A stretch of 64,000 bases of DNA from Octopus vulgaris (lineage: Eukaryota), in the NCBI GenBank assembly GCA_951406725.2, contig OX597831.1, positions 21,948,001 through 22,012,000 on the forward strand, given 5' to 3'. A program made the translations under genes and the position numbers. The notes beneath the pieces are model-generated. The model was given only the letters and a program-made list of their open reading frames with translations. It was not told the origin of the DNA and made no database searches. Below, piece after piece: positions 5,436 to 60,903 of this stretch (position 1 is its first letter; every line of letters begins with the position of its first letter).

Positions 5436-5543
5436 ATATATATATTTATATATACATGTAGAAGGATGAAAAGGAACACACGAGTTGATATATATGGAAA
5501 AAAGTCAAGATAGAAAATGCTAAAACAATGTTATAAAAAACAG

Positions 5544-5585
5544 TTCAGTACCTGTTTCAGTCATTGTGACTTTTTCAACTGTAAC
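5544..5585 (-). ncRNA. Minimal type I hammerhead ribozyme motif (U3-A8 variant), inverted copy
   Basis: CAG-TTGAAAA-AGTCA(CAA)TGACT-GAAAC-AG-GTA-CTG; the stem III palindrome is broken by one substitution. Confidence 0.6.
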
Positions 5586-6047
5586 AATCAAACAATTAAA
5601 TTTAGAAAAATTAAAAGAAAAGTTTTTTAAAAGAATATTTGTATAGTGTTCAAATACAAATGGTATTTTCCTTGTTTCTGCCTGTCTCTGTCTCTCTTGT
5701 TTACTCTTGTGGGTTCGAGGTCGTTGTGAATTCTTGGCAGGGAAGACGAAGAAGAAGAATGTGGGAGTGCCATGGCACACCCACATCCTTCTTCTTCTTC
5801 TTCTTCTTCTTCTTCTTCTTCTTCTTCTTCTTCTTCTTCTTCTCCTTCTTCTTCTTCTTCTTCTTCTTCTTCTTCTTCTTCTTCTTCTTCCCTACCAAGA
5901 ATTCACAATGACTTCGAACCCACAAGAGTAAACAAGAGAGACAGAGACAGGCCGAAACAAGGAAAATGTTACTTGTATTTGAACGCTATACAAATATTCT
6001 TTTTAAAAACTTTTCTTCTAATTTTTCTAAATTTAATTGTTTAATTG

Positions 6048-55723: not shown

Positions 55724-56114
55724 TGGGGTGAAATATAATTAATTTAATAAAATCAACAAATTTCACCTAGTATTATTTCGGTATGGAAAAGGACCATATT
55801 CGGTAAAAATTTATATAATTATAATAATAAGGGATTTTTGTAACAAGCTGCTTAACCACATACCGAAAATTTTAGAAATAGCAGTCAAAAGACTACTATT
55901 TCCTTTTACTACAAAAATAAGTCTCCACAATTAACCGAAGACTGTGTGTTTTCATTATTTTTCTTCTTTTTTTGCCATATATGAGTTACAAATATTGTTG
56001 TTTGTGGAGACCTATTTTTGTAATAAAAGGAAATAGTAGTCTTTTGACTGCTATTTCTAAAATTTTCGGTATGTGGTTAAGCAACTTGTTGCAAAAAAAC
56101 CCTTATTATTATAA
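55723..56114. mobile_element. Microsatellite-bounded fold-back module (arms ~55820-55930 / 56002-56114)
   Basis: ~110-bp inverted arms; same architecture as the hammerhead-bearing modules, but no complete core seen. Confidence 0.75.
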
Positions 56115-58631: not shown

Positions 58632-58632
<1 letters not shown>

Positions 58633-58930
58633 CTCTTATTATAAAAGGCAGATTTTATCTGCCTCCCTTTGGGAGTTATACAAATCTACAATATAGGATT
58701 TCTTCAATTACAATTTACCTTGCATTTTTAAGAGTACAATGCATCGCGTCATGCCAGGTCCAGTTTTTAAAATTTAAACTCCAGTTAAGCAAAATTTACA
58801 GAAAACTCACATTCTGGTGTGTGTGTCAAATGCTTTTCTTAGTCTGGTTTACACCACACGCAAACGCACACACACAGTGGGCAACGAATAAAATGAAACT
58901 AATTCACTTACTGTAGTGAGTGATTCTTTC
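58632..58930 (+). mobile_element. Probable Helitron 5' fragment
   Basis: Starts TCTCTTATTATAAAAGGCAG, like the other Helitron 5' ends; no 3' CTAG terminus found. Confidence 0.45.
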
Positions 58931-59142
58931 ACTCTGCCTCCCACTTCTTCTTTCCACACAGACACGCAAATATATAAATAAAATTGTAAGCTAACGTGCG
59001 TGTGTGTGAGTGGGTGTGTGTGGGTGTGCGCGCGTGTGTGTGTGTGAGGGTGCGTGTGTGTGTGTGTGTGTGCGTGTGCGTGAGTGTGTGACAGGAAAGT
59101 TTTTTTATGACGAATATAACACCTATATCCAAGTAGCAGAAA

Positions 59143-59730
59143 GATAAGACAGTAAGGTGTGATTTGAGGGAGATTTAGCTGCTATTTCTACCATGTCTAG
59201 CTGCCATGTAGGGGTCTCCCTCATAGGCTCATACATACATATATACATAGATAAGACAGTAAGGTGTGATTTGGGGGAAATTTGGCTGCTATTTCTACCA
59301 GGTCTAGTTGCCATGTAGGGGTCTCCCTCATAGGCTCATACATACATATATACATAGATAAGACAGTAAGGTGTGATTTGGGGGAAATTTGGCTGCTATT
59401 TCTACCAGGTCTAGCTGCCATGTAGGGGTCTCCCTCATAGGCTCATACATACATATATACATAGATAAGACAGTAAGGTGTGATTTGGGGGAAATTTGGC
59501 TGCTATTTCTACCAGGTCTAGCTGCCATGTAGGGGTCTCCCTCATAGGCTCATACATACATATATACATAGATAAGACAGTAAGGTGTGATTTGGGGGAA
59601 ATTTGGCTGCTATTTCTACCAGGTCTAGCTGCCATGTAGAGGTCCCCCTCATTGGCTCATATATATATACATACATAAGACAGTAAGGTGTGATTTGAGG
59701 GAGATTTGGCTGCTGTTTCTACCAGGTCTG
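59143..59730. repeat. 107-bp tandem repeat, ~5.5 copies
   Basis: Unit ATAAGACAGTAAGGTGTGATTTGGGGGAAATTTGGCTGCTATTTCTACCAGG...; inner copies nearly identical. Confidence 0.97.
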
Positions 59731-59799
59731 TTAGGCCTTCTCATGTAAACTCAAGCTTTCTCATGCCTTCAACATATGACCAAAGCAGAGAATGTATTC

Positions 59800-60010
59800 T
59801 TTTATTCTTCTGCTTTTTCCAGCCATTGGTCTGTGGCCATGCTGGGGCAATGCCTTGACGAATTGTAGTTTAATGAATCAACTCCAGTTTTATTTTTGTA
59901 AGCATTGTACTTATTCTATCTGTTTCCTTTGTCAAACCACTAGGTGACAGGGATGTAAACAAACCAGCATTCGTTGTCAAGCAGTGGTGGAGGACAATCA
60001 CAAGCACAGA
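59800..60010 (-). mobile_element. Diverged SINE family A 3' half
   Basis: Matches TGTGGCCATGCTGGGGCA...GTAAACAAACCAGCAT. Confidence 0.7.
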
Positions 60011-60090
60011 CACGCACACACACACACATACATGCATACACATATACACACATACATACATACATATATATATATGTGTGTATATATATA

Positions 60091-60415
60091 TTGCAGCGTG
60101 GAAGGTGTTTGTAAGCCATTTAAGAAACACACAAAAACCGTTACATTCACTTCAACATTTAAATTTAATTTGCCAAAATATTTTCGTCGCTTTCAGACCG
60201 CGACCTGTTCACTGACAAAAATATCGTGCTAACAGGTCGCGGTCTCAAAGCGACGAAAATATTTTCACAAATTAAATTTAAATGTTGAAGTGAATCTAAC
60301 GGTTTTTGTGTGTTTCTTAAATGGCTTATAAACACCTTCAACGCTGCAACTGTTTTCGTTCCAGCACACGATCTCAGATCAAGTCACTTGCTATGCAAGT
60401 ACATCTCTGTAACTA
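60091..60415. mobile_element. TA-bounded fold-back PLE-derived module (arms 60091-60209 / 60231-60349)
   Basis: ~119-bp near-perfect inverted arms with a 21-nt spacer; contains a hammerhead motif. Confidence 0.85.
60169..60219 (-). ncRNA. Minimal type I hammerhead motif (G3-C8 variant)
   Basis: TTTGTCA-GTGAACA-g-GTCGC(GGTCTGAAA)GCGAC-GAAA-ATAT-TT-TGGCAAA; 7-bp stem I, 5-bp stem II, AATATT palindrome. Confidence 0.7.
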
Positions 60416-60515
60416 TATATATATTTACATATATATATATATATATGTATATTGGTAAAAACAGTAAGATAACAAAAGAAAGAAAGAGACCTCAATATTA
60501 TGTAAATAGAGGAAA

Positions 60516-60902
60516 TCTTTATATATAAAAGTGAGGTTGTGTGTCTGTCTCCTACGATTTAGATTCCTAACTACTCCCACATTTTGCGGTGCAGTTTTAC
60601 CAAAACCGGGTATCTTATAGTCGTGATTCATATCGAGACCGTCTGGGTATTAGCGCGTCTACGATGAGTCTACGATTTAAAAAAATTTACCATCAATTTT
60701 TCCCATTTTTAATCCATTTTTGACATATATAAGGAAGTAACTCTCTAAAATTTATTATTAAATCTCAGAACGTAAAAAGCTACAGTAACACCCTCCCCTT
60801 TGTGGTTAGCCATATTGAGATGGCTATTATACTTTACATCTCTAAAAATGCTTATATAATTATTTCCCTTACAAACCCGAGCAACGCCGGGCGATACTGC
60901 TA

Positions 60903-60903
<1 letters not shown>
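60516..60903 (+). mobile_element. Non-autonomous Helitron
   Basis: 5' TCTTTATATATAAAAG; the 3' ~65 bp are nearly identical to those of 15892-16263 (hairpin plus CTAG); A/T insertion site. Confidence 0.85.

What the first reader, a model, noticed from the sequence alone, without database searches (positions are those of the whole stretch)
60091..60415. G3-C8 hammerhead inside a near-perfect 119-bp fold-back
Seen: the left arm has the complete motif on the minus strand (GTGAACA core); the right arm is truncated inside the core and continues into a unique tail. Established: PLE insertions often have inverted 5'-truncated terminal copies. Inference: a flipped 3-8 pair in a young non-coding element, whose read-through transcript would form a long dsRNA hairpin.
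Basis: partly seen in the sequence, partly recalled or inferred. Interest (0 to 1): 0.75.

Follow-up and report, generated by a model that had tools for sequence, protein, structure and literature searches.

The report
Swapped-core hammerhead riding a Helitron
The hairpin is a head-to-head stub of a Penelope-type jumping gene that a second jumping element has copied to hundreds of places; its hammerhead RNA motif has two paired core letters swapped relative to a sister family, a natural variant that likely still cuts weakly but is untested.

Summary
The fold-back is real (119-nt arms, 6 mismatches). It is the usual head-to-head insertion of the end piece of a Penelope-like retrotransposon (PLE; RT, CxxxCxxC linker, GIY-YIG), which I traced in the same genome. 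The 'unique tail' is codons 10-31 of that PLE's ORF. The stub is not itself the young mobile unit: it is cargo in a 2.27-kb non-autonomous Helitron-type element (58632-60903), and its exact junction occurs at 549 places. The G3-C8 core is real. It stands in about 89% of 2,352 cores of this subfamily and in both pLTRs of a young sister subfamily with long ORFs, while a more distant sister (55% protein identity) has C3-G8 in the same register, with double-sided changes in helices I-III. Cleavage is not shown. Only 2 of 99 copies start at the predicted cut, and a G3-G8 sublineage also spread. In this fold-back the long stem is predicted to outcompete the ribozyme by about 53 kcal/mol. Verdict: a new core variant of a known ribozyme class, inside an ordinary insertion.

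The parts
58632..60903 (+). Non-autonomous Helitron-type element (2.27 kb) that carries the fold-back as cargo; A|TC start, hairpin plus CTAG|T end
   Evidence: 30 of 30 loci (one is the window itself) share both flanks out to these ends; 5' motif exact in 29 of 30 loci, 3' motif exact in 28 of 30; head-to-tail CTAG|TC junctions in L010, L013, L024, L029
59142..59729 (+). 107-bp tandem array inside the Helitron-type element
60091..60230 (-). PLE end piece with complete hammerhead, without tail (left arm plus spacer); PLE start codon at 60119-60117
60169..60219 (-). Minimal type I hammerhead motif with G3-C8 core (G3 60212, C8 60207), extra G at 60205, helix II 60204-60200/60190-60186, palindromic helix III, predicted cut 60176|60175
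   Evidence: sequence; helices I and II form with probability 0.70-1.00 in the isolated motif; pair counts
60231..60412 (+). Inverted partner, 5'-truncated inside the core, carrying the tail
60321..60412 (+). First ~31 codons of the PLE ORF (MAYKHL...); 60350-60412 is the PLE 'tail'
   Evidence: translation matches the ORF start that follows the 5' pLTR of L198
60876..60903 (+). Helitron-type 3' hairpin (CCCG...CGGG) and CTAG end
   Evidence: sequence; similarity between copies stops here

Best explanation
The fold-back is a head-to-head insertion of two short end pieces of a Penelope-like retrotransposon lying in a TA run inside a Helitron-type element that recurs at hundreds of places, and its hammerhead motif has a natural G3-C8 core that likely keeps weak, dimer- or protein-assisted cutting in the parent element but is predicted to be folded shut in this hairpin. 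Steps: (1, shown) the unit is the 3' pLTR plus tail of a PLE; (2, inferred from Frangieh 2024) reverse transcription started at two sites in the ORF start, giving one arm with the tail and one without; (3, inferred) this single insertion landed in the Helitron, which then multiplied it by DNA rolling-circle copying, with no need for the ribozyme; (4, shown as sequence, function inferred) the 3-8 pair flipped once in the ancestor of subfamilies A and B and was kept; (5, inferred) copies are made mostly from uncut RNA.
For: PLE link: long copies continue upstream into RT motifs, a CxxxCxxC linker and a GIY-YIG domain (Pfam GIY-YIG above cut-off); L198 has the unit in direct repeat on both sides of the ORF, 4.26 kb apart. 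Cargo: shared flanks and ends; exact junction at 549 places, whereas free copies show many different junctions. Core: 2,092 of 2,352 are G3-C8 and 0 of the 90 non-G3 are C3-G8; 49 of 58 readable cores in a sample picked by a downstream motif; subfamily B (80-86% protein identity to A) has G3-C8 in 98 of the first 100 of 2,019; subfamily C (55% to B) has C3-G8 in 98 of the first 100 of 3,299 in the same register, with double-sided changes in 5 of 15 pairs and at most 3 in slid controls. No variant at 5% or more at 60212 or 60207 in four public runs with four other organism labels. C3G/G8C partly rescues a PLE hammerhead in vitro, the motif needs the PLE protein, and cutting is not needed for insertion (PMC11167929). 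Hairpin beats hammerhead by 52.7 kcal/mol in the 325-nt minus-strand RNA.
Against: No cleavage data. Only 2 of 99 copies begin within 2 nt of the predicted cut, against 44 in one bin 52-61 nt upstream. A sublineage of long A copies has the unpaired G3-G8 core and still spread (15 G-G against 32 G-C cores in L161-L216, overlapping loci counted). Subfamily C mostly has C, not A, at position 9 (96 of the first 100), so its own core is imperfect. The covariation rests on one comparison (A+B against C), so each pair counts as one event; 40 of 500 shuffles reached the number of pairs changed on both sides. The extra base after position 9 is G, outside the published consensus H. No autonomous Helitron partner was sought.
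Confidence: 0.72

Rival explanations
1. The PLE and Helitron anatomy is as above, but the G3-C8 motif is a dead relic: the pair arose by two drifting changes and is copied only because it lies between the start site and the ORF.
For: 5' ends do not pile up at the cut (2 of 99); the G3-G8 sublineage spread; hammerhead mutants do not impair PLE insertion in vitro; U17 and a 2-bp helix III point to low activity (established knowledge, recalled).
Against: Between A/B and C both partners changed together at 3-8 and in helices I, II and III while U4-G5-A6, G12-A13-A14 and G10.1-C11.1 stayed fixed; between A and B loop II changed and the stem did not.
Confidence: 0.18
2. The fold-back is kept inside the Helitron for a function: read-through makes a 119-bp dsRNA that feeds small-RNA silencing or A-to-I editing, or the DNA hairpin helps the Helitron move.
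For: Very stable predicted hairpin; 549 exact-junction copies.
Against: Helitron-borne copies drift: the window's sublineage carries two changes (60194, 60266) that lower arm pairing relative to other carriers, and 2 of the 8 carriers compared have lost G3 (those two were picked by a non-G3 search). Head-to-head stubs are the normal insertion form of this family.
Confidence: 0.07
3. The 325-bp fold-back is its own young mobile unit (a foldback MITE or retrozyme).
For: Near-identical copies on many contigs.
Against: Identity runs on for about 1.4 kb left and 0.5 kb right of it in all 30 loci; no tandem direct arrays among the free copies inspected; the unit is the end of a protein-coding PLE.
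Confidence: 0.03

Closest known systems
Minimal type I hammerheads in pLTRs of metazoan Penelope-like elements (Cervera and de la Pena 2014, PMC4209133)
   Same: Position in the pLTR, sense strand, extra base between 9 and 10.1, G10.1-C11.1 pair, palindromic very short helix III, thousands of truncated copies, pairs on opposite strands.
   Different: Core pair is G3-C8. The paper reports C3-G8 and U3-A8; none of the rows of its Fig. S3 alignment that I read starts with G3. The extra base is G (their consensus is H).
PAc Poseidon element of Anolis (Frangieh et al. 2024, PMC11167929)
   Same: Tail is ORF sequence between two end points; AT-rich targets; copies do not start at the hammerhead cut. 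The C3G/G8C double mutant made there is the core that is natural here.
   Different: PAc is naturally C3-G8 and its ORF starts inside the hammerhead; here the ATG lies about 55 nt downstream of the cut and the protein has a CxxxCxxC linker (Neptune/Nematis type).
EN+ PLE insertions with an adjacent inverted 5'-truncated copy and tail (Craig et al. 2021, PMC8557442)
   Same: Inverted partner, tail at one end only, (TA)n target.
   Different: Tail is about 63 nt rather than 30-40; the insertion was then amplified by another element.
Non-autonomous Helitrons with captured cargo (features recalled, not from a call)
   Same: 5' TC, 3' hairpin plus CTAG, insertion between A and T, head-to-tail tandems, internal tandem array.
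   Different: Cargo is a PLE fold-back with a ribozyme motif; no RepHel partner was looked for.
Non-LTR retrozymes (bioRxiv 10.64898/2026.07.22.740005)
   Same: Short units with a type I hammerhead, related to PLE pLTRs.
   Different: Retrozymes are direct tandem arrays; these units are single or head-to-head and are truncations of a coding PLE.

Membership tests
PLE minimal type I hammerhead | Core CUGANGA ... GAAA ... UH with a Watson-Crick 3-8 pair | tested here: met
   Met as a pair, not as letters: G3-C8 in A and B, C3-G8 in C, same columns.
PLE minimal type I hammerhead | Helices I and II, G10.1-C11.1, extra base after 9, palindromic short helix III | tested here: met
   Sequence, folding of the isolated motif, pair counts.
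PLE minimal type I hammerhead | Lies in both pLTRs of a PLE on the sense strand | tested here: met
   L198:1220-1427 and 5481-5682 flank the ORF.
PLE minimal type I hammerhead | Self-cleavage (as dimer or with protein) | not testable with these tools
   No raw RNA reads were offered; genomic 5' ends do not mark the cut.
Rfam hammerhead families | Covariance-model match | tested here: not met
   No match in the window at gathering scores; none among 115 hits at E <= 10 in L198 and L206, which includes the C3-G8 motif.
EN+ Penelope-like element (parent) | One ORF with RT then GIY-YIG | tested here: met
   GIY-YIG above the Pfam cut-off in A and B, no Pfam hit for C; RT motifs read by eye and blastp E 7e-9 to a 781-aa protein that matches RVT_1 just under its cut-off; RVT_1 itself did not hit A, B or C.
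EN+ Penelope-like element (parent) | pLTR, tail, inverted 5'-truncated partner, TA targets | tested here: met
Neptune clade | CX2-5CxxC linker and RT phylogeny | tested here: inconclusive
   Linker present; no tree with reference clades was built, and Nematis also has such a linker.
Non-autonomous Helitron | 5' TC, 3' hairpin + CTRR, A|T target, no terminal inverted repeats | tested here: met
Non-autonomous Helitron | Autonomous RepHel partner with the same ends | not tested
Non-LTR retrozyme | Direct tandem array of hammerhead units | tested here: not met
   Single or head-to-head units in the loci inspected.

The most novel reading that the evidence does not exclude
A whole clade of recently active Penelope-like elements runs on a natural C8 hammerhead, the lab 'rescue' mutant fixed in nature: a deliberately slow, protein-gated ribozyme kept because the element must copy mostly uncut RNA, invisible to CUGANGA searches. 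Hundreds of Helitron-spread fold-backs would in addition supply dsRNA against that clade.
Probability: 0.3. Interest if true: 0.65.

Novelty: new variant of a known kind. Interest (0 to 1): 0.42.

Why it matters
Position 8 supplies the general acid of the hammerhead, and C3G/G8C is known as a partial laboratory rescue. A family with thousands of natural G3-C8 copies and a C3-G8 sister in the same genome gives a ready natural pair for asking why PLEs keep a ribozyme that insertion does not seem to need. It also shows that motif searches tied to CUGANGA miss whole PLE families. The fold-back itself is ordinary; its spread by a Helitron is a clear case of one element multiplying another's fragment.

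Tried and rejected
Rfam scans found no hammerhead. Plain folding of the motif with flanks gave weak z-scores (-1.2 to -1.9), as expected for a minimal motif. The first PLE family reached through Pfam GIY-YIG (781-aa ORF, U3-A8-type core) showed no DNA link to the unit. No RNA holder is listed on record; the 'RNA?' runs are contigs and cannot show ends, strand or level. The idea that G3 completes a splice acceptor (TTTTGTCAG), or that the upstream branch-point-like and pyrimidine tract ends an intron, got no support: one search showed no splice joint, but the upstream exon was not in the laid stretch, so it is untested. An untemplated cap G at copy starts was considered: G precedes the start in 7 of 17 cases, some explained by the partner arm, inconclusive. 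Fifteen window frames gave no Pfam hit above cut-off, so no host gene context is known. Paper searches: hammerhead+Penelope+octopus, 'G3-C8' (one engineered mention), C3G+G8C (57), U3-A8 (58), 'G3C8' (66, none), '3 and 8' with 'core variant' (67, none), C3-G8+natural+variant (84), Helitron+captured+Penelope+hammerhead (94, two reviews, listing only). Lunse et al. 2017 and Przybilski and Hammann 2007 are not held and may report or test natural G3-C8 cores.

Full report
Observation. The inverted repeat is there: arms 60091-60209 and 60231-60349, 119 nt, 95% complementary, six mismatches, folding z = -27.7. On the minus strand the left arm holds a complete type I hammerhead layout: helix I 60219-60213 with 60175-60169, core GTGAACA with G3 at 60212 and C8 at 60207, one extra G, helix II GTCGC/GCGAC, GAAA, a palindromic AATATT in place of helix III, and U17 at 60176. 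The right arm begins inside the core and runs to 60412. Rfam has no match.

The cassette is cargo. A DNA search of the own genome (2.8 Gb, 227 contigs) scored 40 of 2,345 candidates; all 40 matched full length. Of the 30 loci fetched, one being the window, 26 are identical over 60091-60415 and 4 differ by one base (these are the best hits, so biased to identity). All 30 also share the flanks, from about 58632 to 60903. That unit starts A|TC, ends in a short hairpin and CTAG|T, and occurs head to tail in four loci: the marks of a non-autonomous Helitron (criteria recalled). The exact junction between the arms occurs at 549 places, while free copies of the repeat join in many different ways. One insertion into a TA run of the Helitron, then amplification, is the simplest reading (inference). 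Eight carriers found by core patterns differ at 0-7 places; 60194 and 60266 are changes that lower arm pairing in the window's sublineage, and two carriers (picked by the non-G3 search) have lost G3.

The parent is a Penelope-like element. Some copies extend upstream through a branch-point-like and pyrimidine tract and about 1-1.7 kb of microsatellite-rich DNA into an ORF with RT motifs, a CxxxCxxC linker and a GIY-YIG domain. A protein search gave three groups: A, the window's type, with broken ORFs in the copies read; B, 80-86% identical to A, with open frames up to 1,025 aa; C, 55% identical to B, up to 1,312 aa. In L198 the unit stands in direct repeat on both sides of the ORF and its 5' copy runs straight into the ORF, which starts MAYKHL; window 60321-60412 encodes the same first ~31 codons. 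So the 'unique tail' is the PLE tail. Pfam RVT_1 did not hit A, B or C; the RT call rests on motifs and on blastp (E 7e-9) to another PLE protein.

The flipped pair. With positions 3, 7 and 8 free, the A-type motif has 2,352 matches; 90 lack G3 and 170 have G3 without C8, leaving 2,092 G3-C8 (89%; up to 549 of them are Helitron-borne and not independent). None of the 90 is C3-G8. A looser pattern that demands G3-C8 finds 7,623. In B, 98 of the first 100 of 2,019 are G3-C8. In C the motif lies at the same place and is C3-G8 in 98 of the first 100 of 3,299, though position 9 is C in 96 of them. MAFFT aligns six chosen copies (three A, one B, two C) in register: 92% of cells pair, 5 of 15 pairs change on both sides, including 3-8, against at most 3 in slid controls. 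These are single events between two lineages, and 40 of 500 shuffles reach that pair count. Four public runs with four other organism labels hold the repeat with no variant at 5% or more at either position (contigs, 80% likeness). As C3-G8 is the general rule, G3-C8 is taken as derived (inference; no tree).

Against activity. I sampled copies by a motif downstream of the cut (the first 100 of 3,783 matches, all on contig C1; 99 distinct units). Forty-four start in one bin 52-61 nt upstream of the cut, at or just after AGATG; 2 start within 2 nt of the cut, one of them at a helix I microhomology. Nine carry the upstream tract; six others binned as long were spurious microsatellite alignments or one base off the bin. 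Copies thus come mostly from uncut RNA. Long A copies clustered on C16 have G3-G8 and different flanks, so a broken pair did not stop spread. In the window the long stem removes the ribozyme fold: pair probability 0.0 and a cost of 52.7 kcal/mol, against 0.70-1.00 for the isolated motif and about 0.05 (cost 1.6 kcal/mol) for the left arm alone.

Literature. Cervera and de la Pena 2014 (PMC4209133; read parts 1-2 of 4 of the text and parts 1-2 of 3 of the supplement) describe the same minimal layout with C3-G8 and U3-A8 cores. Frangieh et al. 2024 (PMC11167929; parts 1-2 of 4) show that the tail lies between two RT start sites in the ORF, that C3G/G8C partly restores cutting of a PLE hammerhead, that cutting needs the protein, and that it is not needed for insertion. 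Craig et al. 2021 (PMC8557442; passages and a supplement search) describe the inverted partner, tail and linker. Perreault et al. 2011 (PMC3088659; passages) name U3-A8 as the natural covariation. PMC8495972, PMC3884650 and PMC6765202 were seen as passages; the retrozyme preprint as parts 1-2 of 5 (its supplements are closed). My searches found no paper reporting a natural G3-C8 PLE core, but Lunse et al. 2017 and Przybilski and Hammann 2007 could not be read. Earlier notes of this scan reach the same reading for this family and list similar swaps elsewhere; they are not independent support.

Verdict. An ordinary PLE stub, amplified as Helitron cargo, carrying a real natural core variant of the hammerhead whose activity is open. 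New variant of a known kind; interest 0.42. The genome looks octopus-like from recalled repeat content; this was not tested.

Noticed in passing
L206:3695-3750 (-), L204:2806-2861 (+): Sister subfamily C has C3-G8 but mostly C at position 9 (96 of the first 100 of 3,299; A in 3), and two helix III variants ending in U17 or C17.
   Followed up: partly
G000:C16, e.g. L142, L144-L147: A cluster of long subfamily A copies with an unpaired G3-G8 core, concentrated on one contig; either a reversion or an intermediate of the flip.
   Followed up: partly
L198:1195-1230 and 5' ends in L217-L303: 5' ends of short copies pile up at AGATG, which is both the end of a branch-point/pyrimidine/AG tract and an initiator-like site; start site or intron end is unresolved.
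   Followed up: partly
L091-L106: A second young PLE family (781-aa frame, overlapping upstream ORF, repeats in the 3' UTR) with a U3-A8-type hammerhead core; related U3-A8 motifs in L068, L070, L071, L074, L079, L085.
   Followed up: partly
window 55835-56097: A second fold-back (101-nt arms, 94%) between microsatellites, similar to stretches in L087, L068 and L109; probably another head-to-head stub.
   Followed up: partly
window 16241 (+): A second Helitron-type 3' end motif like the one at 60881.
   Followed up: no
window 60992 onward: Sequence starting TACCGTATATACTCG resembles the end of a pogo/Tigger-type DNA transposon (recalled, not tested).
   Followed up: no
window 46375 (+): TTGATAAGG, the start of a U3-A8-type core seen in other PLE families of this genome.
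   Followed up: no
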